From positions 34,100,001 through 34,164,000 of the forward strand of contig JAGIQG010000021.1 of NCBI GenBank assembly GCA_024679065.1: a stretch of 64,000 bases of DNA. Reading direction: 5' to 3'. A program made the position numbers and the translations under genes. Below are positions 5,397 through 62,529 of this stretch, in pieces (the stretch's first letter is position 1; each line of letters starts with the position of its first letter). The notes beneath the pieces were generated by a model. It saw only the letters and a program-made list of their open reading frames with translations. It had not been told where the DNA came from and made no database searches. This stretch comes from Sphyrna mokarran. Lineage: Eukaryota.

Positions 5397-5700
5397 ATTA
5401 TTTCATGGGATGTGGGTGTTTCTACCGTTAGTCAGTATTTATTGCCCATCCCTAATTGCCCTTGAGAAGGTGGTGGTGAAATGCCTTCTTGAATTGATGC
5501 CATCCAATCCACGTGGTGCAGGCACACTCACAGCTTAGGGAGGGAGGGAGTCCCAGGGTTTTGACTCAGTGACAGTGAAGGAATGGTAATATATTCCCAA
5601 GTCACGTTACTGAATGGCTTGGAGGGGAACTTCCAGGTGGGGGTGTTCCCACGTCTGCTGCCCTTGTCCTCCTGGATGGTAGCGTAATGAGTTTGGAAAA
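5397..5700 (-). mobile_element. 3' end of a second CR1-group LINE family
   Basis: ttcatgggatgtggg...tttattgcccatccctaattgcccttgagaaggtggtgg; same family at 9360-9680, 36035-37790 and 63905-64000. Confidence 0.65.
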
Positions 5701-15531: not shown

Positions 15532-17095
15532 TTGGACAAACTGTTTCATTTCACATGCTAGATAGATAAGTAACTGGCTTAGTAATAGGAGCCAGTCACT
15601 CTATCTATAACTGATAGAGTAATAGTGGAAGGGTGTTTTTCTAGCTGGAGGTCAGTCACTAGTGGTGTGCCTCAGGGCTCATACTGGGACCTCTTCTATT
15701 TGTAATATATATAAATGACTTGGAAGAGGGAGTAAGTGGAGTGATCAGCAAGTTTGCAGACAATACAAAGATGGCTGGACTTGCGGATAGTGGGGAGCAT
15801 TGTCAGGCGATGCAGCAGGACATAGATAGGCTGGTAGCTTGGGCAGACAGATGGCAGATGGAATTCAATCCTGATAAATGTGAGGTGATGCATTTCGGGA
15901 GAAAGAATGTAGCGGGGAGGTATATGATAAAGGGTAAACCTATTAAGAGTATAGAAACGCAGAGGGACCTGGGGTGCAGGTGAACAAGTCTCTGAAGGTG
16001 GCAGAGCAAGTGGAGAAGGTTGTGAAGAAAGCATATAGTATGCTAGCCTTTATAGGAAAGGGTATAGAGTACAAGAGCTGGCCTTTAATGTTGCAGTTGT
16101 ATAAAACGTTGGTTAGACCTCATTTGGAATACTGCGTCCAGTTCTGGTCGTCCTACTACCGGAAGGACGTGGAGGGAGTGCAGAGGAGGTTTACCCAGGA
16201 TGCTGCCTGGTATGGAAGGTCTGAGTTACAAGGAGAGGTTAGGCAAATTGGGACTGTTTTCCGTAGAAAGACGTAGACTTAGAGGAGATCTAATAGAGGT
16301 GTACAAGATTATGAGGGGTATAGATAGAGTAAACAGAGTTAAGCTTTTTCCTAGGATGAACTCGAATAGCACGAGGGGTCACGGGCTTAGAGTGAGGGGG
16401 GGGTAAGGTATAATTTGGATGCTAGAGGGAGTTTTTTCACACAGAGGCTGGTGGGGGTATGGAATGCGCTGCCAAGTAAAGTGCTGGAGGCAGGCATTCC
16501 GGAGTTATTTAAGGAATACTTAGATGGGCACATGAATGGGAATACAGGGGTATAGGAAACGGATTTAAAATAGGGATCATGAGCCTTGGGAGTCCCTGGG
16601 AAGTGTGTAAATAGATGATAATATTGATGTACTTGTTTTTATCCTACAGGTGCTTTGGTCCACCTTGTTGTCTAACAAGGGGCATACACGCGATTGGTCA
16701 TGAGGGGGCTGCATTTGGAGTTTTTTTTGAGAGTATCCTAGTGCTTCACGTCGTTAGTGTACGCTTGACCTGGACCATTTGATGGGCAACACGACAGCTC
16801 AGTGACTATCGCTGTGCTGTGCAGATGCATGGATTTGGGCCTCCATCTGTGCACATTCTCCCTGTGCTTGCGTGGGTTTTCTCTGGGTGCTCCAGTTTCC
16901 TTCCACATCCCAAAGATGTGCTCAGGCTAATTGGCAAAACAAATTCTCCCTAAATTGTCTCAAATTTGGTTTTTAATCCATAGGTCTATAAACATAGACA
17001 GCGATCACGGGTAGAGGTGGGAACATCGGAGTGGCGGCGCGGGCTCGTTGGGCCGAAGGGCCTGTTTCCCATGCTGTTTTGTTCTTTGTTCTTTA
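15532..17095 (+). mobile_element. 5'-truncated CR1 (frameshifted RT C-terminus) with an extended 3' UTR containing a V-SINE; nested in an older minus-strand CR1 (about 15240-15430 and 17095-17300)
   Basis: SGVPQG, SKFADNTK, WQMEFNPDKCEVMHFG, LYKTLVRPHLEYCVQFWS, RLRGDLIEVYK; V-SINE at about 16790-16950; (gttcttt)n tail. Confidence 0.9.
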
Positions 17096-19250: not shown

Positions 19251-19499
19251 TGGCCTGCAAAGCGGTGCGCGCAGGCGCAGAGACGGACCACGCCCTCTCT
19301 GACATCACCGTTCGAAACGTCACCCACACCGCCCCGCCCTCTCACCACCTCTCTGACGTCACCCCCATCTGTGCCGGTCGTCACGCCCCCTTGCGCCAGC
19401 GGGGTGGTGTGCGCAGGCGCAGAGGCGGAGCACGGCTTTTCTGACATCAGCGCTCATTAACATCACCCGTCCCGCCCCTTCACTGTGCCAATGGCACAC

Positions 19500-19647
19500 T
19501 CAGTAATAGTCTGGCAACACCAATTTGCCTGACGAAGACGAAAGTCGAAAGCTCGCAGATTTACTATCAAATAAATCGGTTGGATTTAAAATTGGTGTTG
19601 CCGGACTGTTACTGAGTTTACCTCAGTCCAACGCTGGCATCTCTACA
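19500..19647 (+). mobile_element. Fold-back Penelope-like pLTR mini-element (family A) inserted in the NDEL1 promoter
   Basis: 12-bp TSD ccaatggcacac at 19488-19499 and 19648-19659; inverted arms 19500-19526 and 19589-19615. Confidence 0.8.
19522..19561 (+). ncRNA. Minimal type I hammerhead ribozyme with an intact core
   Basis: aatttgc-CTGACGA-a-gac(gaaa)gtc-GAAA-gc-TC-gcagatt: 7-bp stem I, GNRA-capped stem II, palindromic AGCT stem III, predicted cleavage after C19554. Confidence 0.8.
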
Positions 19648-19811
19648 CCAATGGCACACCCCACTGACATCCCACCAATCTGTGTCACCTGCGGAGCGGT
19701 GCGCGCAGGCGCAGAGGCGGGCCGCGCCCTTTGACGTCACCACGCGATGGGGTCTTCTGCCCCCCGTCCCCTCATTGTGCCACAGTATCATTCCCCATCA
19801 CAAGTCCCTTC

Positions 19812-20434
19812 TCATATGGTGTACTGGCCTTCATTAATCGAGGGATTGAGTTTAGGAGTCGGGAAGTAATGCTACAACTTTATAAGCCCCTTGTCAGACC
19901 TCACTTGGAGTACTGTGTGCAGTTCTGGTCACCTCACTATAGGAAGGATGTGGAATCTATTGAGAGGGTGCAGAGGGGATTCACAAGGATGTTACCTGGA
20001 TTGGGAGCCATGCCTTACGAAGATAGGTTGAGGGAGCTAGGTCTCTTCTCGCTGGAGGAACGAAGGTTGAGAGGGGACCTGATAGAGGTTTATAAGATGC
20101 TGAGAGGAATAGATAGAGTGGATTCTTGGAGGCTATTTCCCAGGGCTGAAATGGTCGCTACGAGAGGACACAGATTTAAGGTGCTAGGGGGCAAGTACAG
20201 AGGAGATGTTAAAGGCAAGTTTTTCACTCAGAGGGTGGTGACTAAATGGAATCGACTGCCGTCAGTGGTGGTAGAGGTGAACTCGCTGGGGTCTTTTAAG
20301 AGACTTCTGGATGAGTACATGGGATTTAATTGGATTGGGAGTTACAGATAATTCTATGGCCTGGGAGGTACTAATATGATTAGCACAACTTGTGGGCCGA
20401 AGGGCCTGTGTGTGCTGTAGTGTTCTATGTTCTA
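19812..20434 (+). mobile_element. 5'-truncated CR1 LINE
   Basis: Open frame YGVLAFINRGIEFRS...LYKPLVRPHLEYCVQFWSPHY...LRGDLIEVYK; gttctatgttcta tail. Confidence 0.92.
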
Positions 20435-29209: not shown

Positions 29210-29522
29210 TTGGCACAACGGTCAGCAGTGCTGCTTCACAGTGCCAGGGACCCAGGTTTGATTCCCAGCTTGGGTCACTGTCTGTGTGGAGCTTGTGTGC
29301 TCTCCCTGAGTCTGTGTGAGTTTCCTCTGGGTGCTCCGGTTTCCTCCCACATTCCGAAAGACATGCTTGTTAGGGCATTGGCCATGCTAAATTCTTCCTC
29401 AGTGCACCTGAATAGGCGGCAGAGTGTGGCGACTAGGGGGTTTTCACAATAACTTCATTGCAATGTTAATGTAAGCATTACTTGTGATACTAATAAACAA
29501 ACTATAAAACTTTAAACTTTAA
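29210..29522 (+). mobile_element. V-SINE
   Basis: tRNA-like head gcagtgctgcttcacagtgccagggacccaggtttgattccc, V-domain, actaataaa..aaacttt tail. Confidence 0.85.
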
Positions 29523-35715: not shown

Positions 35716-36261
35716 TTGTTATACTTCAACTTGATCTTTGCTTTCCAGTTGCACTGTTTGATATCGGTAGGACATCTTAGACCATTGGCCAATTCCTTCT
35801 TTGTTAAGTGGGCAGCTCTTAGCAAGGCTGCAAGCATCAAATCAAAGGTGACTTTCAACTAGCTTTTGTGCTATAAATGATTGGGCCAAGGCATTCAGTC
35901 ACAAATGGTCTATTGTGACCACATAGTCTTGGCTTGTTCTGTGTGACTACCACTAGATTACCTTCAACTGCAGATAACGTGGGCAAAAATTTCCACGTTT
36001 CAATAGTTGAAGTCATGTGAAACTGAACCTCTTTTTATTCATTCATGGGATGTGGGCACTGCTGATTAGGCCAGCGTTTATTGCGCATTGCTAATTGAGA
36101 ATGTGCTGCTGAATTGTCTTCTTGAATCTTGTAGATGGTACACTGCTGCCACTGGGTGTCAGCAGTGGAGAGAATGCATGTTTGTGGAAAGGATAGTCCA
36201 TGTAAAGTAGGTGCACCCTCAGTGCTGTTAGGGAGGAAGTTCTCGAATTTTGACAGTGAAG

Positions 36262-37354
36262 TGTTGCCTGCTGCATAGTCCGTTTTAACCCTTATACGGT
36301 GGACAAATAAGTAGACGTCTTATTAGTACAACCAATATTTATTTAAACTGACACAATCAATAGTCACCCGCCTGATCAACAATACGTTATCTTACAGGAA
36401 AATACTAGAATTCAAGTTCAATACAAGACCTTGACTTAACTTTGTGTGACTGGCAAGTACCCAATCCGATATTGGCCTTTATCTGTGTGCTGGTCTTGAT
36501 AGTCATCTGCATAGTCTGGTCCTTTGGTCTGGTGTGGCACTCCAGCTCTTGTCTTCTTCCTTCCTTCCCAGGTGTGGTGGTTCTCCTCTTGCTGGCGATG
36601 GTCACCATTCTTTTAAAACTTTATTCCAATCCAATCCAATCAAATCAAATCCAATTCAGAATCCCTGATCCAAGCTGACAAGACAGGGTTCTCACCATCT
36701 ATCTTGGGCTTGATCTACATGATCCAAGCTGATTGGAGTAGGTATAGCTCCTCCTCCAAGACTTGACCTTATTTGCATCTTAGCCAAAAGGCCGAGATGC
36801 CGCTTTAAAAAATTGCTTCAAATGAAGCTGAAATGTAACCTAATGACTTCAACTTGCTGGCGATGGTCACCATTGTTGTAGCTTGTTTTGAAGTCAGAGA
36901 GAGAGAGAGATTCCTGGTTGTGCAGCACCCTTTATACCCCATTTGGTTTCACACCCCTGTTTGGCCATTGCCAATCAATCAGTCAGGACTTGATCACCCT
37001 AATCGATAAGAATCTAATCTGGTGCTACCATACCAATCTCTGGGTGTGTCGCCAGCAGCCATTCTGTAGGTATTGGAGGCACATAGGTCACATACCTCCC
37101 TCCTAAATAAGGGTTCACAGTGCCTCTATATCTAGTACACAACCCAGTATGACCAGAAAGTCTCTTTCATCCTGGAGATGAAACAAGCCAGTGTGACTGT
37201 AAAGTCTCTTTGATCCTGGAGATGACCCATATCCTGTTTGTTCACTCACCCAGATTGCAGCCTGTTTGTCTCTGTCTTTAAACTGCAGCCTGTCAATTTA
37301 GTTTGTCTCAGAGTGCTTTACAAGACTCCATTTTGGATGGGCCATTTGGCTACA
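36262..37354 (-). mobile_element. Solo LTR (ERV1- or Gypsy-type) inserted in a CR1-group LINE
   Basis: TGT...ACA termini; 4-bp TSD GAAG at 36258-36261 and 37355-37358; minus-strand TATAAA at 36936-36931 and AATAAA at 36343-36338; host LINE reads through when it is removed. Confidence 0.75.
36610..36852 (-). mobile_element. Short retroposon containing a U2 snRNA 5' segment
   Basis: 22-bp TSD cttgctggcgatggtcaccatt at 36588-36609 and 36853-36874; 36800-36777 matches U2 nt 4-27 at 23/24; (ATTGG/ATTTG)n + AATAAA end. Confidence 0.75.
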
Positions 37355-38519
37355 GAAGGAATGGCGATATATTTCCGTCAGGATAGTGAGTGAATTGGAG
37401 GGAATCTTCCAGGTGCTGGTGTTCCCAGGAATCTGCTGCCCTTCTCCTTCTAGATTGTTACGGGTTTGGAAAATGCTTGGAAGGAACCTTGAGGAGTTGG
37501 ATCTTGTAGATGGTACACTGCTGCCACTGGGTGTCAGTGCTGGAGAGAGTGCATGTTTGTGGAAAGGGTAACAATCCAACAGGCTGGTTTATCCAGGTGT
37601 TATTGAAGCTGCACTCATCTGGACAAGTGAAGAGTATTCCCTTATATTCCTGAATTGTGCCTTGTAGATGGTGGACAGGCTTTGGGAATCAGTTAGTGAG
37701 TTACTCACCATACAATTCCTAGTTTCTGACCTGTCTTGTTGCCAGAGTATTTATATGAGCAGTCTGGTTTACTTTCTGGTCAATCCCCGGGATTTGACTA
37801 CTTGTACCTCATTTATTAAAGTTAAAGTGAGAACAAAAGGCAAAAGGTCAACATAGCAGCAAAGTAAAGTGGCCGGGGGGAAAAAAAACTAGTCTACCTG
37901 TAACTTCCTGATAATGACAGCAAAAATAGTGAATCATTGCATGAAAATCCCTGTGTGAGTTCGTACAAAATGGAATGTTTACACATTCATTAAAAGATTG
38001 GATTTTCAACATTATTATTAATGTTAGTGAGGAAAGAAAAGTGACTCAGCTGGAGATGGATGAGGATATTTTGATCAGTTAATAATAACGCCCAAGGTAA
38101 CTTATATAATCTTAAAGTTGAAAGTTTTAAACGGTAATGCTGGTAAAATAATTAATTTATTTGCATGCCCACAGCCGTATAAATGTTGAAGAATGAGAAC
38201 GGTTAATGTGAATAAAATCTTTTCAGGGAAGCAATGAGAATGATTTGGCACTGGAAAATTTTGCATTCGCTGATCTCAAGTTGCAGAACATGTGTTGAGG
38301 CTACTGTTTATCAGTATGAGCAGTCCCAGTGAGGATCAACCCAACTCACTCAGCCTGCTTCCCTCTGGTGAGAGAGTGAATGCAGTGTATCGAGCTGTCT
38401 TGGTATACATGGAGGAAATAAAATGGTGTCGAAGTGAGGTGGCTTCTTGCAAGTTATCCCCAGCAGTACACCTCTAATTCTATCTTTTACTTCCATTCTA
38501 TACTTTTAAAACTTTACTC

Positions 38520-38725
38520 TAACTCCTTAAAACTTTTTAATAATGCTATATTAAGCTGAATTTTCTGTACACCTTAGCTGTGACTATGACATTATAATCA
38601 GCACCTTCTCCTTTCCTTCTCTTCTATACTATGGTATAGTTTATCTGTATAGCGCACAAGAAACACTACTTTTCACTGTATCCCAATACATATGACAATC
38701 GTAAATGAAATGAAATTGAAATGAA
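38520..38725 (+). mobile_element. Rex1/Babar 3' UTR
   Basis: Homologous to 25700-25870; its pentamer tail continues after the CR1 at 39857-39880. Confidence 0.7.
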
Positions 38726-39856
38726 GTCTTGCCCATGGAAGACTTCTACAGAAAATGCAGATGTGTGGAATAGAGGGTGATTTAGCTAATTGGATTAGAA
38801 ATTGGCTGGCAGATAGAAGACAGAGGGTGGTGGTTGATGGGAGATATTCATCGTGGAGTTCGGTGACGAGTGGTGTGCCTCAGGGGTCTGTTTTGGGGCC
38901 CCTGCTGTTTGTAATTTTTATAAATGATCTGGATGAGGGTATTGAGGGATGGATCAGTAAATTTGCAGATGATACTAAAGTTGGTGGTGTGGTAGATAGT
39001 GAAGAGGGGTGTTTTAGTTTACAGAGTGACTTGGACAAGTTGCAGAGCTGGGCCGAGAGGTGGCAAATGGAGTTTAATGTGGAAAAGTGTGAGGTAATGC
39101 ACTTTGGCAGGAACAATAAATGTGTAGAGTATAGGGCTAATGGTAGGGCTCTTAATAGTGTTGAGGAACAGAAGGATCTTGGTGTATGTGTCAATAGATC
39201 CCTGAAAGTAGGCAGTCAAGTGGATAAAGTTGTTAAGAAGGCATATGGAGTCTTAGCTTTTATTGGTAGGGGGATTGAATTTAGGAGCCGCAGCATCATG
39301 TTGCAACTGTACAAAACTCTAGTGCGGCCGCACTTGGAGTATTGTGTGCAGTTCTGGTCGCCACATTATAAGAAAGATGTGGAGGCATTGGAGAGGGTAC
39401 AGAGGAGGTTTACCAGGATGTTGCCTGGTATGGAGGGCAGGTCCTATGAAGAGAGGTTGAAGGATTTGAGGTTGTTTTCGTTAGAAAGGAGGCGGCTAAG
39501 GGGGGATCTTATTGAAACATATAAGATAATTAGAGGTTTGGATAGGGTGGACAGTGATAGCCTTTTTCCTAGGATGGAAAAAGCTAGCACGAGGGGACAC
39601 AACTTTAAATTAAGGGGTATGAGTTATAGGACGGATATCAGAGGTAGGTTCTTTACTCAAAGAGTGATTAGGGAGTGGAATGCCCTGCCTGCAGCTGTTG
39701 TAGATGCGCCAAGTTTGGTGGCGTTTAAGAGGTTAGTTGATAAGTATATGGATGAGAAGGGAATGGTTTAGTTAGGAGGGGCATTGCTTTTTATTTTGGT
39801 CGGCACAACATCGAAGGCCGAAGGGCCTGTTCTGTGCTGTATTGTTCTATGTTCTA
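38726..39856 (+). mobile_element. Young 5'-truncated CR1 LINE with an uninterrupted 338-aa RT C-terminal frame (38755-39771)
   Basis: SGVPQGSVLGPLLF, KFADDTK, WQMEFNVEKC, LVRPHLEYCVQFWSP; TSD tgaaatgaa at 38717-38725 and 39857-39865. Confidence 0.95.
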
Positions 39857-42987: not shown

Positions 42988-43264
42988 GGCAGCACAGTGG
43001 TTAGCACTGCTGCCGCACAGCGACAGGAATTCCCGACTTGGGTCACTGTCTGTTCGGAGTATGCATATTCTCCCTGTGTCTGCGTGGGTTTCCTCTGGGT
43101 GCTCCGGTTTCCTCCCACAATTCGAAAGACATGCTGGTGAGGTGCATTGGCCGTGCTAAATTCTCCCTCAGTGTACCCAAACAGATTGGAGTGTGGTGAC
43201 CAGGGAATTTTCACAGGAACTCTATTGCAGTGTTAATGTAAGCCTACTTGTGACACTAATAAAT
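42988..43264 (+). mobile_element. V-SINE
   Basis: ggcagcacagtggttagcactgctgcc head, V-domain, gtgacactaataaa tail. Confidence 0.85.
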
Positions 43265-43574
43265 GAATCTGAGCCTTTCATGCTCATAGAGGTTCAGCAG
43301 AGGCACCTGCTCTACTGTGCCAGTGCAGGGGCCTGAAGAAAGAGTTCAAAACTCCAGATGGTCAAATATTCAAGTGAATTAAAAAAAATTATTTCCCTGC
43401 AAAAAAAGGTGAAACAATTGTCAAAAGGTCATTGATCCATCTTCCACTCTTACTTTTAGCATCAGCTCTGGCTCACTGCTATTTGTCTGAAATTGTGGGT
43501 TTAGGTCCCGTTCAAGATTTGAGAGCGCTGAGCGAGACCTGCATTGTCGGAGGTTCTGTTCTTCATGTTAAATT

Positions 43575-44894: not shown

Positions 44895-45022
44895 TCTTTA
44901 TTTGGAATTACAAGCTTCCAGAGCACTGGTCCTTCAGAAGGACTCATGCAGTGCTCTGAAAGCTCATGATTCCAAATAAACCTGTTGGACTTTAACCTGG
45001 TGTTGTGAGACTTCTTACCATT
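44895..45022 (+). mobile_element. Fold-back Penelope-like pLTR (family A), hammerhead 5' core lost at the inversion junction
   Basis: tttatttggaatta.aagctt.cagagcactg is inverted against cagtgctctgaaagctcatgattccaaataaa; followed by cctgttggactttaacctggtgttgtgagac. Confidence 0.7.
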
Positions 45023-46494
45023 CCCACTGGTAGAATAGTAAATTTCACAGAATGTTGCCTGGAATAAGTCGAAATTCTGCACCAGGAACCCCAAATTTGT
45101 CACAATGACCATACCAGCCAATCTGAATGGAGTGAAGACACAAGAGAGTGAAAACACAGAGTGTTGGGTAATCCATTTGACATTGAAATCTCCCTGTGAA
45201 AGGGCAGTCAAAACCTGAGTGTGTTGCTAAACGTGTGAGAAAATTCAATCTTGTCAATCAGAGAGGTGAGGTTGATGCAGCAGCTGGAAGTGGACGTCAT
45301 GAACACAGCAAATGTAAGAGAGCAGAAGTTGGCAAATTCAGCCCTTCAAGTCTGCTCCGCCATTGAATCAGATCTTGGCTGATCCCTCCCTGGTCTCAGA
45401 TCTACTTCCCCACTTGCTCCCACATCTCTTTAACCCATTCTTTATCAGAGAGGGAGATTCTGCTATTGAGTTTGTCCACCATATCACAGGGAGAACATTC
45501 TAGAACATTTCGACAAGACGGCATCCTCTCCAGCAAGGCTGCCTATCCTGATGTTGAAGCAACTCCGCCAAAGTGGTTCAAGGCAGCTGAGCAGAGAGCG
45601 TTCTCATTTTCAGATGATTTGCTTCTAAACAATCGCGCCCACATCTTAAACAATTACACACTATAAGACATCTTTAACCGAGATGAATTGGGATTGTTTA
45701 CCTTCTGTGTGAAGGGAAACATGCAATGGTGGAAAATGGAACAAGAAACATGCCACTGTGACAGTCTATGCCAAGATGTATGCCAAAACATTGAAAGTTT
45801 TCAAGAGGCCATTAGATATAGCATTTGAGGCGAAAGGGATCAAAGGATATGGGGAGGAAGGGGGGATCGGGTACTGAGATTGATGATCAGCCATGATCAT
45901 TCTGAATGGTGCAGCAGGCTCATATTGTTCATGTTTCTCAGATTCCTAATTTTGGACTCAATTCTGTGCACTATTTGGAAAGTTCTCCCTGTATTCTGGC
46001 TAATTTTTTTCCTTTAAACAATAGATTGCCTGGCCATAATCTCAGTGCTCTTTGTGGCTGCCGTGCTTCCTGCATGACAACTATAATGACACTCCACTTT
46101 GTTGGCTACTCAGAAATTTGAAAATTTTCAACCTGAGGTTGAAAAGTTGCTTTATAAATGCCAATTCTTTTATCATTTTCAGGCCCCTCTGTCCATCCAA
46201 AGGCATGGAGATTGCTCAGTCTAGGGTAGTTAATACTTGCTGGAGAAAGAAATTAGATTATTAAAAGAAATGAATAGATAATTCTAATGGATCAGCAATT
46301 CTCCTTTTCTTCAAGTAATGTTCCATATTGCTATTAGTTATTAATCAGATCATCTTAGAACTTTGACAATTTTAAGGGAGATACTTCTGGATCCACCTTG
46401 TTAAAAAAATTATCAATCCTTTTTTGGAGTTACAAAGCCAATGTGCAGAGTGGACGCAGCAAATCCCTAATCCATCTCCTTGCTTGCTTCGAAA

Positions 46495-46625
46495 AAACAA
46501 TTCAAATTCAAATTGAATTCAATTCACCATTAGAGAGGCATAAAGATCCAAGCTGATAAGAATGTCTGATTCTTATGTCTTATGTCTGATTCTATACTTT
46601 ATCTTAGCCAAAAGGCTAGGTCTGC
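46495..46625 (-). mobile_element. Second, decayed copy of the U2-segment retroposon
   Basis: atcttagccaaaaggc at 46601-46616, gatccaagctgataaga at 46545-46561, and a (aattc)n-like tail in the same order as 36610-36852. Confidence 0.6.
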
Positions 46626-46652
46626 ATTTGGGTATAATGAATATCATCATTA

Positions 46653-46803
46653 AAAGTTAAACAAAAAGTAAATTTATTAGTCACAAGTAAGGCTTACATT
46701 AACACTTATTGAAGTTATTGTGAAACTCCCCAAGTTGCATTCGGGCGAATGCACCTAACCAGCATGTCTTTCAAACTGTGGGAGGAAACCGGAGCACCCG
46801 GAA
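46653..46803 (-). mobile_element. Truncated V-SINE
   Basis: tttattagtcacaagtaaggcttac tail and V-domain. Confidence 0.7.
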
Positions 46804-47839
46804 GTGATGCCCACAGCCCATGGAAACAAAATTATCAATTCTAACTAAAGTGTGTTTTTGCAGAAATATTCAATCTATACCCCGAACACCATTTATCCTA
46901 ATCTGGTCCTGTATCTTGATAGATAAAAATACTGGCGCATTATCAAATTTACGAGTTAAATTATCAGGATCTGTATCCAGGAACAATGCAGTTAACAAAA
47001 TTATAACCCATTCAGTGGTTGATTTAAACCTGCCCAAATTGATGCTGTTAACTTTTAAAAGGTGGCCATGAATCATTAGCCAATGTAAACTTGCCAGTTT
47101 TGGGACATTCAAAATGCCTGCATTAATATACAAATCATGGTTCTATTATGTACCAAGCCCGATGATTATTATTTCAAGACAGAACTGATCGGGGCATGTG
47201 CCGTGTACTCTCCAACTAATTCCACTGGCATTAGAACTGAAGAGGTTTTGGAAAGGTAACTGTGCCACTGAGCCAAGACATTCCATTCTTTTTATACATG
47301 CAGTACTTCACCATATCATTAAAAAGATGCAGTTCAAATAATTTGATAGATGAGTTGGAACAAAATTGCTTCAATCGGAAGTAATCACAGAAATAAATAT
47401 TTCTAACATTCATTTCATTAAGTTGACTTAAACCTCACTGAGATTGATATTATGGAATATAAACTAATTATTCCTAGGTGGGATACTGGACACAGTACAA
47501 ACTGGGGGTTAATCTATTCCAGTGAAGACTTTGAGGAAGTTGCATTGAGCAGTCATTACGGTTAGGCAGATATTAACATTGCAGCCTGGAACACACTCAT
47601 GTATAGTTCAGCAAGGGTATATGCGGAGTTTGTTTGTTGCAATTTTTCTTGGATAGTGAGCTATCTGAAAAGTCATTCAAAATGTTTAGCACAAATCAAA
47701 GAGACAAGGCATTCACTGATTTGAAAAGAGGAACAGAGCGATGTAAGAACAGGCATGGGCCATTTAGCCCATCGAGTCTGCTCTACTATTCAAGACAATC
47801 ATGGCTGATTATCTACTTCAATGCCTTTTTCCTCATATT

Positions 47840-49655: not shown

Positions 49656-49811
49656 TGAACTATCACACTTCCAAACAGAATGTAAATTTTTGTAATATTA
49701 TCTCTACAAGTTCTTTTACAACAAGACTATTAATTAACCTTTTTCATGACAGAATACTAGATCTAACATAGCTCTCTCAAACATATTGATCTAGAAAACC
49801 ATTCCTAATGC

Positions 49812-52342
49812 AGTACAATACCAGCAGCAGCTCCAACACCAGCAGCAGCGCCAACACCAGCAGCAGTGCCAATACCAGCAGCAGCTCCAATACCAGCAGC
49901 TCCACCAGCAGCAGCTCCAACACCAGCAGCTGCAATACCAGATGCTCCAACACCACCAGATGCTCCAACACCAGCAATAGCTCCAACACCAGCAATAGCT
50001 CCAACACCAGCACCTCCAACACCAGCAACAGCTCCAACACCAGCAGCAACTCCAACACCAGCTGCTCCAACACCAGCAGCAGCCCCAACACCAGCTGCTC
50101 CAACACCAGCAGCAGCCCAACACAGCAGCTCCAACACCAGCAGCTCCAACACCAGCAGCTCTAATACCAAAGGCAACTCCAACACCAGCAGCAACTCCAG
50201 CACCAGCTGCTCCAACATCAGCAGTAGCTCCAACACCAGCAGCTCCAACATCAGCAGCAGCTCCAACACTAGCAGTTCCAACAACACAAGCAGCTGCTCC
50301 AACACAAGCAGCGGTTCCAACATCAGCAAATCCAACACCAGCAGCTCCAACATCACCAGCAGCTCCAGCATCAGCAGCAGCTCCTGCACCAGCAACTCCA
50401 ACACAGCAGTTGTAACACCTGCAGCAGTCCCAACACTAGCAGCAGCTCCAACTGCAGCAGCAGCTCTAACTGCAGCAGCGCCAACACTAGCAGTAGCTCC
50501 AACACCAGCAGCTCCAACATCAGCAGCAGCTCCACCACCAGCAGCTACAAAATCAGTAGCAGCTCCAATATCAGCAGTTCCAACAACACCAGCCACAGCT
50601 CCAATACAAGCAGTGGTTCCAACACCAGTTGTTCCAACACCAGCAGCAGCTCCAACACCAGCAGCTCTAACACTGGCAGCAGCTCCAACACCAGCAGCTC
50701 CAACAACATCAGCAGCAGCTCCAACACCAGCAGCGGCACCAACACCAGCAGCTCCAACACCAACAGCAGCTCCAGCACCAGCAGCAGCGCCAACACCAGC
50801 AGCAGCTCCACCAGCAGCAGCTCCAACACCAGCAGCTGCAACACCAGCAGCAGCTCCAACACCAGCAGCAGCTCCAACATCAGCAGCAGCTCCATCACCA
50901 GCAGCTGCAACACCAGATGCTCCAACACCACCAGCAACTCCAACACCAGAGGCTCCAACATCAGCAGCAGCTCCAACACCAGCAACAGCTCCAACACCAG
51001 CAGCAACTCCAACACCAGCTGCTCCAACACCAGCAGCAGCCCCAACACCAGCAGCTCCAACACCAGCAGCAACTCCAACACTAGCAGCAACTCCAACACC
51101 AGCTGCTTCAACATCAACACCAGCTCCAACACCAGCAGCTCCAACATCAGCAGCAGCTCCAACACCAGCAGTTCCAACAACACAAGCAGCTGCTCCAACA
51201 CAAGCAGCGGTTCCAACATCAGCAAATCCAACACCAGCAGCTCCAACATCAGCAGCAGCTCCAACACCAGCAGTTCCAACAACACAAGCAGCTGCTCCAA
51301 CACAAGCAGCGGTTCCAACATCAGCAAATCCAACACCAGCAGCTCCAACATCACCAGCTCCAGCATCAGCAGCAGCTCCTGCACCAGCAACTCCAACACC
51401 AGCAGTTGTAACACATGCAGCAGTCCCAACACCTGCAGTAGCTCCAATAGCAGTAGCTGCAACACCAGATGCTCCAACACCACCAGCAGCTCCAACATCA
51501 GCAGCAGCTCCAACACCAGCAGCTCCAACATCAGCAGCAGCTCCAATATCAGCAGTTCCAACAACACCAGCCACAGCTCCAATACAAGCAGTGGTTCCAG
51601 CACCAGTTGTTCCAACACCAGCAGCAGCTCCAACACCAGCAGCTCCAACACCAGCAGCTCCAACACCAGCAGCTCCAGAACTAGCAGCAGCTCCAACACC
51701 AGCAGTTCCAACAACATCAGCAGCAGCTCCAACACAAGCAGTGGTTCCAACATCAGATGCTCCAACACCAGCAGCTCCAACACCAGCAGCAGTTCCAACA
51801 GCAGCGGTTCAAACACCAACAGCAGCAACACCTGCAACAGTTCCAACACTAGCAGCAGCTCCAACATCAGCAGCAGCTCCAACAGCAGCAGCACCAACAC
51901 CAGCAGCTGCTCCAATACCAGCAGCTCTCCAATACCAGCAGCGCCAACACCAGCAGCTATAAAATCATCAGCTCCAACACCAGCTGCTCCAACACCAGCA
52001 GCTCCAGCACCACCAGCAGTGCCTGCACCAGCAGCTCTAACACCAGCAGCAGCTCCAACAACAGCAGTTCCAACACCAACAGCTGCAACACCTCCAGCAG
52101 TTCCAACATCAGCATCAACTCCAACACCAGCAGCAGCTCCAACATCAACAGCAGTTCCAATAGTAGCAGCTCCAACGTCAACAGCAGTTCCAACACCAGC
52201 AGCAGCTTAAACACCAGCAGCTGCTCGAACACCAACTGCTCCAACACCAGCAGCTCCATCATCAGCAGCTGCTCCAAAGCCAGCAGCTCCATCAGGAGCA
52301 GCACAGCTATAGCACAGCTACACAACACCAGCAGCAACAGCC
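49812..52342. repeat. 2.5-kb minisatellite of 15/18-bp units (CAGCAGCTCCAACAC / CAGCAGCAGCTCCAACAC) with higher-order duplications
   Basis: Directly visible; produces long low-complexity ORFs in several frames on both strands. Confidence 0.95.
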
Positions 52343-57360: not shown

Positions 57361-57665
57361 GGGTGGCATGGTGGCACAGTGGTTGAACTGCTGTGTCACA
57401 GGGTTAGGGACCCAGTTCGATTCCAGCTTGCGTCGCTGCCTGTGCAGAGTCTGCATGTTCTCCCCATGTCTGCATGGGTTGACCCCGGATATTCCGGTTT
57501 CCTCCCATAGTCCGAAAGATGTGCTGCTTAGGTGCAGTACCCATGCTAAACTCTCCCTCAGTGTGCCTGAACAGACGCTGGAGTGTGGCAACTGGGGATT
57601 TTCACAGTAACTTCATTGCAGTATTAATGTGAGCCCATTTGTGACACTAATAAATTAACTTTTTA
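57361..57665 (+). mobile_element. V-SINE
   Basis: tRNA-like head, V-domain, gtgacactaataaa tail. Confidence 0.85.
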
Positions 57666-60722: not shown

Positions 60723-61965
60723 GTCTTCAATCAGACTGAGCCCTCTTTCTAAAGCTGGCTAGATTCACACACCAGTGTCTGGTATCTTTTTTGTGGTCAC
60801 TTTTAACCACAAAAGGTGAGCGGAATTCAGTATCACAATTCACCTCAAGGTTTGGCATGGTTCAGTGGTGGCATTTGAACCCACACCCTCTGGGTTGCTG
60901 CTGGGCCATAACAATACAGGCCACTGTACCCTCCCGTCATTGAAATGAAATCTTGTCAATTAATAGCAGTCTCTGTGCTACGTATTCTGGTCGCTGCTTC
61001 AACTTTTCCCCTGTCAGAATTGCAGCCAAGCTGGCATCAGTTCCAACAGATTTCACAATGTTAGATCCACTTCTTTTTTGAGACTTCACAACTTTTTTTT
61101 TAAAAAGGTAAAAGTTCTGCTTGCTCCTTTCAAAATGACTTTTAAAACCTCAACACGAGGGTGACTGACAGAAGTGTGGATTGCGTTGCCAGTCTGTGTT
61201 GGAGGAGTGACGCTGAGGGATCTACTTTCCCGGCTGAGAAAGTGCGGTAAAACGGTCAGGAAATCAGTACTCCCTCACTTCATATGTTGCAACCACAGGG
61301 AACCGGACCGTGAGCTGTTACCGTAACACTGACGGGAAGATCTGAACTGTCACAGAGAGACCAAGTTTTGCTCTGATATCCTTTCTCTCCCAACGGCACT
61401 GGATGGGGACAACCACAAATGTTTGGCAAGTCAAAGACAGTTTCACATTTCAGCGTTGAAATAATAACATTTGTCAGACCCAAAACCAGAACAGGGCATT
61501 TGACTCATTCTGCCGCGGCTCAGTGGAAAAAGGACAGTGGGAAACAAAAGGTCAAGAGCTGTTGAATTCGTCTGATGTGAGGTTATTTTTGTTCTTGTTT
61601 TAGTCGCAGTTCGGGCTCTACACAGTACGGTATGTGCTAGATTCCAGCACACTTCCTCAAACAGAGAGAGAGAAGAAAAAGCTTTCACTCCGGAGAGGTG
61701 GGTGAAAATGGGCTGGTGGCTGAACAAGTTGAAGCAGCCCGCGGTTCTCATCAGCTGCCAGCGGCCAGGCGAAGCCCAACCAGCTAAGCAGGGAGTCCGG
61801 AGTGGGGTAGGCAGTAACATCCCAGGAGTGGAGTCCTGACAAAGAGTCTCAAACCAAGTCCGGATCTCTGGGTGGGGATTTTCAAACACCCCCCCCACCC
61901 CACCCACTCTCTCTCTCCCCCGGGGAGAGTGGGGCTAGAGAACCCCCCGGGGAGGGGGGAAAAGG

Positions 61966-62529
61966 ATGTCGGAGGAGGGAGGCTGCGAGTGCCCGGTCTG
62001 CTACGAGAGGGTGTCTCGCCAGAACCAGTCGCTGAGGACACTGAGCTGCAACCACATCTTCTGCCACGACTGCCTGGTCAAGACGGTGCTCAATCAGGAC
62101 AGCGAGCCCAACAAGTTGGTGTGCCCGGTCTGCAGGCACGTCACCTTCCTGAGCAGGAGAGGGGTGCTGTGGAGCGCCCGCGGCAGAGAGGGCAAGCAGA
62201 CGCTGGAGATCCCGCTGCCTCCCCCTGCTGCCCCGGAGCTTCCCCGTGCCGCCGCTCCTCCGCGCTCCTTCCTCCACCGCCTGCTGGCCAGCTGCCCCTG
62301 GACTCTGGGCTCCGCCCGCCGGCCGGCGCCGGCCCCCCGCCAGGTATTCGTGATCAGCGGCCGGGGCCGACCCATGAGCGAGGAGGAGCTGCGAGGCGCG
62401 CCCGGCGAGGACGGGCTGGTGCTGGAGCACCGGCGCTGCAGGCTGCGCTGGGTGCTGGTGCTGCTCTGCTTCATCATCATCGGGGCAGTGGTGGCTGCCA
62501 TCCTGCCCTGGGTCACCTCCTTCAGATAA
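61966..62529 (+). CDS. RNF222: RING finger protein 222 (RING-HC E3 ligase with a C-terminal membrane anchor), single coding exon
   Basis: ECPVCYE..RTLSCNHIFCHDCLVK...LVCPVCRHVTFLS, QTLEIP, QVFVISGRGRP and TM ...AVVAAILPWV all parallel human RNF222; GC-rich; divergent from NDEL1 as in human. Confidence 0.93.
   Translation: MSEEGGCECPVCYERVSRQNQSLRTLSCNHIFCHDCLVKTVLNQDSEPNKLVCPVCRHVTFLSRRGVLWSARGREGKQTLEIPLPPPAAPELPRAAAPPRSFLHRLLASCPWTLGSARRPAPAPRQVFVISGRGRPMSEEELRGAPGEDGLVLEHRRCRLRWVLVLLCFIIIGAVVAAILPWVTSFR

What the first reader, a model, noticed from the sequence alone, without database searches (positions are those of the whole stretch)
36588..36874. SINE-like retroposon built on the U2 snRNA 5' end, with a perfect 22-bp TSD
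Seen: a 243-bp insert. On the minus strand it reads about 50 nt of leader, GCATCTCGGCCTTTTGGCTAAGAT (23/24 to U2 nt 4-27, stem-loop I), an overlapping octamer ATGCAAAT, TCAAGT (possible continuation of U2), a body with TCAGCTTGGATC twice, an (ATTTG/ATTGG)n tract, AATAAA and a short A/T end. It is not a plain U2 pseudogene, because a non-U2 body follows. Known: snRNA-headed SINEs (SINEU) are described from crocodilians, and Keno (Tx1) and Utopia elements target U2 genes. Inference: an independent U2-derived SINE in sharks, or a non-autonomous derivative of a U2-targeting LINE; the long TSD and AATAAA suggest L1/Tx1 machinery.
Basis: partly seen in the sequence, partly recalled or inferred. Interest (0 to 1): 0.7.

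Follow-up and report, generated by a model that had tools for sequence, protein, structure and literature searches.

The report
Shark jumping element remodelled from U2
A short mobile element in a shark-type genome appears to be built mostly from rearranged pieces of the splicing RNA U2 refolded into a new repeated hairpin, a kind of element that the papers checked describe only from crocodilians.

Summary
The 243-bp insert, its exact 22-bp target duplication and the U2 stem-loop I head are real. It lies in sense just downstream of the TATA box of a solo LTR. Both units fold into the same new hairpin, with 14 of 14 pairs kept and 4 changed on both sides. A model of the units finds a second, older, near-full-length U2 derivative 9.8 kb away (E 1.8e-4) that shares a derived 13-mer. 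Best reading (0.65): a SINEU-like, U2-derived retroposon family that arose independently in elasmobranchs and is probably moved by Tx1-type machinery. Bold reading (0.12): the duplication created an internal Pol III promoter (A and B boxes 60 nt apart) with a T+-type tail. Genome-wide copy number, Dfam/Repbase status and the partner LINE could not be checked.

The parts
36853..36874 (-). 5' copy of the 22-bp target-site duplication; starts with an 11-bp palindrome
36801..36852 (-). 52-nt leader of unknown origin with a small hairpin and a T6 run; its first 9 nt are an inverted copy of LTR 36888-36896 (weak: that 9-mer occurs 7 times in the window)
36775..36800 (-). U2 stem-loop I head (U2 nt 4-27), stem lengthened by 3 bp through three changes; holds an A-box-like 11-mer at 36786-36776 and a T4 loop at 36789-36786
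   Evidence: by-eye comparison with U2 printed
36719..36772 (-). Unit A, 54 nt, derived from U2 nt ~22-61: 8-bp outer helix, 1x3 internal loop, 6-bp inner helix; B-box-like 9-mer with one mismatch at 36768
36665..36718 (-). Unit B, 54 nt, tandem partner of unit A with the same fold; B-box consensus match at 36715-36707
36626..36664 (-). ATTTG/ATTGG tract, alignable to the middle of the second element; probably expanded from the U2 pre-Sm/Sm stretch (inferred)
36610..36625 (-). 3' end: AATAAA, one G, T4, A4G
36588..36609 (-). 3' copy of the 22-bp target-site duplication
36262..37354 (-). Host solo LTR (TG...CA, 828 bp without the insert, 4-bp TSD at 36258-36261 and 37355-37358, TATAAA at 36936, AATAAA at 36343, 44-bp tandem repeat in the U3 side)
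   Evidence: uninterrupted paralogous site near 5572-5590
46405..46623 (-). Second element: older, near-full-length U2 derivative with one copy of the unit (46607-46543), a similar tract, a U2 stem-loop III-like part (46480-46439) and an A6 run
46406..46839 (-). Possible 12-bp TSD (46828-46839 and 46406-46417) around the second element plus about 200 nt of upstream repeat fragments; uncertain
   Evidence: 2 of 238 control placements reach 12 bp or more, one of them 22 bp long like the first element's own TSD

Best explanation
The insert is a young copy of a non-autonomous retroposon family derived from U2 snRNA, comparable to crocodilian SINEU but of separate origin in elasmobranchs. Inferred history: a U2 retrocopy lost splicing function when the branch-point-recognition stretch and stem-loop IIa (nt ~25-61) were remodelled into one long hairpin. 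The second element keeps one such unit plus the U2 3' domain. The lineage of the first element duplicated the unit, kept or re-acquired stem-loop I, dropped the 3' domain and gained a poly(A) signal. The RNA was copied into the R region of a solo LTR by target-primed reverse transcription with a staggered cut of 22 nt, most likely by a Tx1-clade enzyme acting in trans. The 52-nt leader with a T6 run suggests that the parent was transcribed by Pol II reading in from a flanking promoter, as proposed for SINEU. This copy lies in sense about 55 nt downstream of the LTR's predicted start site and could be transcribed the same way. Shown: anatomy, TSD, LTR context, kinship of the two elements, shared predicted fold. 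Inferred: family status, order of events, enzyme, polymerase.
For: TSD and A-rich end. Units A and B: 14 of 14 pairs kept, 4 with both sides changed, 2 with one side changed. Nulls: 0 of 5000 random-substitution trials keep all pairs or reach the consensus energy; inner helix 592 of 200000 (3128 with slip allowed) and 499 of 200000. The whole insert folds at z -3.73 against -1.74 to +1.43 in 25 background windows. A model built from units A and B alone ranks the second element first among non-self hits, E 1.8e-4, next 0.06. Shared 13-mer downstream of stem-loop I: 1 of 2000 shuffles. Second 12-mer plus tract against the second element: 0 of 2000; tract alone 11 of 2000. The second element is colinear with U2: Rfam positions 1-192; by eye 27 of 31, 16 of 20 and 33 of 42 against human U2 printed (binomials). 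Kojima 2015 describes repeated U2 additions, partial duplications, 5' extensions, a 16-bp expected TSD, and Tx1 families that prefer LTR elements. Tx1 present and full L1 absent in whale shark.
Against: Only two related elements were seen and their overall layouts differ. Their leaders and their 44-nt spacers show no similarity (1994 and 1338 of 2000 shuffles score as well). The pair-shuffle control on the two units is not significant (45 of 500), and the structure and unit borders were chosen from these same sequences. In the second element the family-type fold is not the minimum-energy fold (-2.7 against -7.5 kcal/mol; the unit's z is -0.75) and its inner helix has a null rate of 2% to 28% depending on the definition. 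Without stem-loop I the insert's z drops to -1.37. Rfam scores are weak (19.5 and 19.6 bits against 46), and Rfam found no U2 in the body alone or in the second element's 3' part alone. The U2 comparisons beyond Rfam are by eye. The A tail is very short. No Tx1 element was identified in the window, so no partner tail could be compared.
Confidence: 0.65

Rival explanations
1. Both elements are one-off processed pseudogenes of a host gene: a variant U2 gene or a U2-derived non-coding RNA with an external snRNA promoter. The hairpin was then selected for a host function and not for mobility, and the copies are dead ends.
For: The second element looks like a near-full-length U2 retrocopy followed by an A run. 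Cartilaginous fishes carry many retrocopies (bioRxiv 10.64898/2026.06.26.734816, passages). Only two copies were seen.
Against: The first element carries a 52-nt leader upstream of U2 nt 4, a tandem duplication and a poly(A) signal, which an snRNA-type transcript would not have. The two elements would need two different parent genes. The branch-point stretch is lost in the first element and altered in the second.
Confidence: 0.2
2. A non-autonomous derivative or passenger of a U2-targeting LINE (Keno or Utopia).
For: Turtle Utopia 3' ends are AATAAA plus a T run plus an A run, much like this end (S1 Fig of PMC4640811), and reptile Utopia make 20-bp TSDs.
Against: Keno and Utopia are followed by U2 from nt 39; here both flanks are LTR sequence and there is no junction at nt 38/39. 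The body is U2-derived and not LINE-derived. The same tail pattern occurs at 3 other places in the window. 'Shark' does not occur in the main text of the Utopia paper.
Confidence: 0.08
3. A single ancient insertion into an active LTR element that was then multiplied as part of that LTR, so that any high copy number is hitch-hiking.
For: The insert lies in the R region of an LTR; Kojima 2015 had to exclude the same possibility for SINEU-3.
Against: The TSD is still perfect, and the related second element is not in this LTR (no match of the LTR elsewhere in the window).
Confidence: 0.05
4. A non-retrotransposition event (break repair that captured a fragment) or an assembly artefact.
For: The first 9 nt of the insert are an inverted copy of nearby flank.
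Against: A long exact TSD, a polarised A-rich end with AATAAA and a diverged relative 9.8 kb away.
Confidence: 0.02

Closest known systems
SINEU-1, -2, -3 of crocodilians (Kojima 2015, PMC4494074)
   Same: U2-derived head, under 500 bp, repeated or duplicated U2 pieces, 5' extension, internal oligo-T, insertion into another transposon, probable Tx1 partner. SINEU-3 is likewise made almost only of U2 fragments.
   Different: Shark-type genome, whereas the paper found no SINEU outside crocodilians. U2 nt ~25-61 is refolded into a new, tandemly repeated hairpin. A- and B-box-like motifs are present, whereas the paper found no promoter-like sequence. The A tail is minimal and preceded by AATAAA and T4. 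The host is an LTR and not Mariner-N4. Sequence homology to SINEU consensus sequences could not be tested.
Keno (Tx1 clade) and Utopia (RLE) U2-targeting LINEs (PMC4640811)
   Same: Association with U2; long TSD and an AATAAA/T-run/A-run end like reptile Utopia.
   Different: They insert into U2 genes at nt 38/39 and encode proteins; this element carries U2 inside itself, has no U2 flank and no ORF.
Class T+ SINEs such as B2, Dip and Ves (PMC8466645)
   Same: 3' order AATAAA, short T terminator, A tail.
   Different: T+ SINEs are reported only from mammals and are all tRNA-derived; beta and tau signals were not tested here; the motif is not rare in this window.
Processed U2 pseudogenes and snRNA chimeric retrocopies (as reviewed in PMC4494074)
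   Same: U2 5' end, TSD, A-rich end; the second element is close to this description.
   Different: A shared derived hairpin in three units, an internal tandem duplication and a leader upstream of the U2 start.
Alu and its monomers (as cited in PMC4494074; dimer architecture recalled)
   Same: A structured small RNA that was deleted and duplicated into a mobile element.
   Different: U2 origin, no native internal promoter, no known binding protein for the retained fold.

Membership tests
SINEU (Kojima 2015) | Head derived from U1 or U2 snRNA | tested here: met
   23 of 24 by eye against U2 printed
SINEU (Kojima 2015) | Short (under 500 bp), non-coding | tested here: met
   243 bp; no ORF of 120 aa or more overlaps it
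SINEU (Kojima 2015) | 3' poly(A) tail | tested here: inconclusive
   only A4G plus two A at the start of the TSD; A6 in the second element
SINEU (Kojima 2015) | Multicopy family with rearrangements shared among copies, not a sum of retrocopies | tested here: inconclusive
   two elements in 64 kb share the derived unit and tract but not the overall layout; no eukaryotic genome collection on hand
SINEU (Kojima 2015) | Sequence homology to SINEU-1, -2 or -3 consensus | not testable with these tools
   no Repbase or Dfam; supplement not held; figures not held
SINEU (Kojima 2015) | Target preference shared with a Tx1 partner | not testable with these tools
   one certain insertion site only
SINEU (Kojima 2015) | Internal oligo-T and no recognisable promoter | tested here: inconclusive
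   three T runs of 4 or more, but also an A-box and B-box consensus pair
SINEU (Kojima 2015) | Crocodilian distribution | tested here: not met
   neighbouring CR1 RT is closest to shark entries among named eukaryotes
Keno / Utopia | Inserted at U2 nt 38/39 with U2 as 3' flank | tested here: not met
   flanks are LTR sequence against the definition
Keno / Utopia | 3' end homologous to the LINE's 3' UTR | not testable with these tools
   no shark Keno or Utopia sequence on hand; only a generic likeness to turtle Utopia ends
Class T+ SINE | AATAAA, then TTTT or TCTTT, then oligo(A) | tested here: met
   36625-36610, definition; 4 such motifs in the window
Class T+ SINE | tRNA-derived head | tested here: not met
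   head is U2; no tRNA gene called in the window
Class T+ SINE | Pol III transcript polyadenylated in an AAUAAA-dependent way, beta and tau signals | not testable with these tools
   needs a transcription assay
Functional U2 snRNA gene (Rfam RF00004) | Full-length match above the gathering score with branch-point stretch, Sm site and 3' stem-loops | tested here: not met
   19.5 and 19.6 bits against 46; first element matches positions 7-26 only

The most novel reading that the evidence does not exclude
U2's 5' end contains overlapping near-matches to the Pol III A and B boxes. Internal duplication pulled them apart to 60 nt and two point changes completed them, so a Pol II snRNA gave rise to a self-promoting Pol III SINE. 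That SINE also evolved a T+-type end (AATAAA, T4, A tail) outside mammals and a selected, dimeric hairpin domain. The pair matches consensus in 4 of 5000 shuffles and 3 of 526 window tiles, and there are 5 such pairs in the window, one at a tRNA-SINE head. Against it: most letters are inherited from U2; the T4 loop about 11 nt after the expected start would stop many transcripts (65-95%); the leader with T6 cannot come from such a promoter; the second element has neither box intact; and only 1 of 8 control SINE heads passed the same test. The box consensus patterns are recalled.
Probability: 0.12. Interest if true: 0.85.

Novelty: new variant of a known kind. Interest (0 to 1): 0.62.

Why it matters
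In the papers read, snRNA-derived SINEs are reported only from crocodilians, and how they are transcribed is left as an open question (Kojima 2015). A second, independent origin in sharks would show that U2 is a recurrent source of mobile elements. The compensatory changes suggest that the RNA was selected to refold the branch-point-recognition region, which may be how such an element avoids interfering with splicing or is recognised by its LINE partner. This young copy offers two directly testable promoters, the LTR upstream and the internal A/B boxes.

Tried and rejected
Octamer as a functional internal enhancer: 6 in the window, absent at that site in the second element; treated as incidental. 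Equal 44-nt spacing between the shared 16-mer and 13-mer: the spacers are unrelated, so this is treated as coincidence or unexplained. Unit A's inner hairpin as a collapsed U2 stem-loop III: only short words match by eye, and there is no similarity to the second element's stem-loop III part (1236 of 2000 shuffles score as well); not adopted. Leader homologous between the two elements or copied from the LTR: no, apart from a 9-mer. Known RNA family for the hairpin: 3 Rfam hits, all E 2.8 or worse. Whole-window Rfam scan: 9 weak hairpin hits, none at the insert. Scan of 185,579 prokaryotic genomes for contaminating copies of the two-motif signature: 0 hits, which is uninformative about shark genomes. 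Further family members in the window: none convincing by nhmmer or by the covariance model (27 other hits, all E 0.06 or worse). Other ATTTG tracts belong to other repeats or are chance. Taxon check with the RING-like ORF failed (no Pfam hit). A statistical alignment to a full vertebrate U2 was not run, so those comparisons are by eye. A recalled 23-bp TSD for Xenopus Tx1L could not be verified. Viral and metagenome contig collections stayed unchecked. The bacterial promoter scan is irrelevant apart from flagging two hairpins.

Full report
Observation. The insert spans 36610-36852 (243 bp) between two identical 22-mers at 36588-36609 and 36853-36874. Outside the large tandem array at 49.7-52.4 kb, only one other exact repeat of 22 bp or more lies 100-600 bp apart in the window, and this pair is the only one of the 28 listed with an adjacent AATAAA. 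On the minus strand Rfam aligns 36797-36778 to U2 positions 7-26 with 20 of 20 identities, but at only 19.5 bits (E 0.066 in a 341-nt search; gathering score 46). The whole-window scan did not list it at E<=1. The 20-mer is unique in the window against 0.01 expected. By eye the head is 23 of 24 to human U2 nt 4-27 as printed in two papers.

Context. The insert lies in a solo LTR at 36262-37354: TG...CA ends, a 4-bp duplication on both sides, and an uninterrupted paralogue of the host repeat near 5572-5590 with a single copy of that 4-mer. The LTR reads on the minus strand (TATAAA at 36936, AATAAA at 36343), so the insert is in sense and begins about 55 nt after the start site predicted from the TATA box (inference). 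A CR1-like RT fragment 2 kb away (Pfam RVT_1; clade name inferred from its relatives) has its best named eukaryotic relatives in Stegostoma (72%) and Chiloscyllium (69%), rays at 53-64%, and birds and turtles at 43-58%, among the 120 of 577 hits listed. Two entries labelled as bacterial (73% and 65%) look like contamination, and unnamed hits were not used. The genome is therefore very probably an elasmobranch, most likely a shark.

A second element. At 46405-46623 on the minus strand Rfam aligns the whole U2 model (positions 1-192, 19.6 bits, E 0.057 in a 321-nt search). By eye against human U2 printed it matches 27 of 31 at nt 12-42, 16 of 20 at nt 43-62 and 33 of 42 without gaps at nt 111-152 (binomial tails: the first and third stay below 1e-6 after correction for the window, the second does not). 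Rfam did not find its 3' part alone. It shares with the first element a 16-mer of stem-loop I and a 13-mer further on. The 13-mer is reached by 1 of 2000 shuffles. A degenerate 12-mer covering the U2 stem IIa start has 2 matches in the window, one in each element, against 0.10 expected. The second 12-mer plus tract of the first element aligns to the middle of the second element better than 2000 of 2000 shuffles, and the tract alone better than all but 11. Leaders and spacers are unrelated. A 12-bp TSD may bracket the second element with about 200 nt of upstream repeat fragments, but this is weak. One extra relative in 64 kb gives 0.4-87 per Mb at 95%, a rough extrapolation that assumes the window is typical.

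The body is rearranged U2. Because the 13-mer occupies the stem-loop IIa position in the colinear second element, its two copies in the insert mark U2 nt 48-61 with an altered loop. The 54-nt repeats that end in them (unit A 36772-36719, unit B 36718-36665) start with U2 nt 22-32 (10 of 11) and nt 24-31 (8 of 8) by eye. Aligned, the units differ at 22 of 53 ungapped columns, yet share 14 pairs with none broken, 2 changed on one side and 4 on both. Each folds on its own at z -2.41 and -4.10. Random placement of the same number of substitutions never kept all pairs or reached the consensus energy (0 of 5000); inner-helix nulls gave 0.25-0.3%, or 1.6% with slip allowed. The tool's own pair shuffle was not significant (45 of 500); it has little power with two rows, and the structure was derived from these rows. 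A covariance model made from the two units alone found the matching part of the second element as the best non-self hit (E 1.8e-4; the next of 27 others 0.06). There a 7-bp inner helix ends at the same place and 7 of 8 outer pairs hold, but a local duplication makes the family fold unfavourable. So the altered IIa loop now pairs with U2 nt 25-32, and the branch-point stretch has been replaced by an arm that pairs with nt 43-48. Stem-loop I is also lengthened by 3 bp through three changes that all create pairs (by-eye comparison); two of them supply the octamer's G and C. No Rfam family explains the hairpin.

Mechanism. A long exact TSD with a polarised A-rich end is the footprint of target-primed reverse transcription (established knowledge). 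Whale shark has Tx1 but no full L1 (PMC8455134, passages), and crocodilian SINEU are attributed to Tx1, some families of which prefer LTR elements, so Tx1 is the likeliest enzyme. This is inferred, not shown. For transcription there are two candidates. The 52-nt leader with T6 inside the TSD-bounded unit points to Pol II read-in or a template jump, as Kojima proposed for 5' extensions. On the other hand an A-box match (36786-36776) and a B-box match (36715-36707) lie 60 nt apart, a pairing seen in 4 of 5000 shuffles and 3 of 526 tiles (consensus patterns recalled), and the end has the AATAAA-T4-A order of T+ SINEs (PMC8466645, passages). U2 ancestry supplies most of those letters, the T4 loop would stop many Pol III transcripts, the second element lacks intact boxes, and the tail motif occurs 4 times in the window, so I give this reading 0.12.

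Comparison with what is known. The element works like SINEU but cannot be filed in SINEU-1, -2 or -3: the taxon differs and consensus homology could not be tested. It fails the defining junction of Keno and Utopia, although turtle Utopia ends look similar. Papers seen: PMC4494074 main text parts 1-4 of 5, without figures or supplements, which hold the SINEU alignments and bear on membership; PMC4640811 passages, section 6 and parts 1 and 7 of 8 of S1 Fig; passages only of PMC4758252, PMC5753468, PMC5499810, PMC7245038, PMC12691288, PMC8455134, PMC1919474, PMC5381603, PMC8466645, bioRxiv 10.1101/2021.08.01.454689 and 10.64898/2026.06.26.734816. Searches for a shark or cartilaginous-fish snRNA-derived SINE (one search listed 25 of 858 papers, one search listed 20 of 45) showed none in their listings. 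The library lacks most subscription journals and Repbase Reports, so the family may already be deposited there or in Dfam.

Verdict. A real, young retroposon insertion, probably one member of an elasmobranch U2-derived SINE-like family with a remodelled and duplicated RNA hairpin (0.65). New variant of a known kind; interest 0.62, limited mainly by the untested copy number and database status.

Noticed in passing
46405-46623 (-): Second, older U2-derived element, related to the finding; its stem-loop I also has two changes that improve pairing, different from those in the first element.
   Followed up: yes
36262-37354 (-): Solo LTR of unknown class (4-bp TSD, 44-bp tandem repeat at 37139-37225) nested in a repeat that has an uninterrupted paralogue at 5402-5680.
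   Followed up: partly
36874-36867, 36698-36692, 46531-46524 (-): The first 7-8 nt of the target site recur inside both U2-derived elements at non-homologous positions, and the target starts with an 11-bp palindrome; unexplained, possibly chance.
   Followed up: partly
49816-52303: Large degenerate 18/33-bp tandem array with long open frames on both strands, for example a 717-codon Thr-Pro-Ala-rich frame at 49809-51962 (+); mucin-like exon or satellite.
   Followed up: no
61939-62529 (-): ORF of about 187 aa from the first Met with a RING-like Cys/His pattern and a hydrophobic C-terminus (recalled likeness to RNF222/RNF152-type ligases); no Pfam hit, no exact match and no homologue at E<=1e-10.
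   Followed up: partly
38725-39771 (+), 19668-20351 (+), 15646-16473: CR1-like LINE 3' fragments; the first was used to place the genome among elasmobranchs.
   Followed up: partly
about 20 places, e.g. 29211-29520, 42992-43267, 57363-57664: Abundant tRNA-derived SINE family (HE1/V-SINE-like by recall); one truncated copy lies about 45 nt upstream of the second U2-derived element.
   Followed up: partly
36122-36195 and 37497-37570: 74-bp duplication (92% identical) on either side of the LTR within the host repeat.
   Followed up: no
712-843, 44900-44976, 19254-19741: Long perfect-looking hairpins with weak miRNA-model hits (possibly MITE-like), and a GC-rich region with repeated GCGCAGGCGCAG motifs that may be a promoter CpG island.
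   Followed up: no
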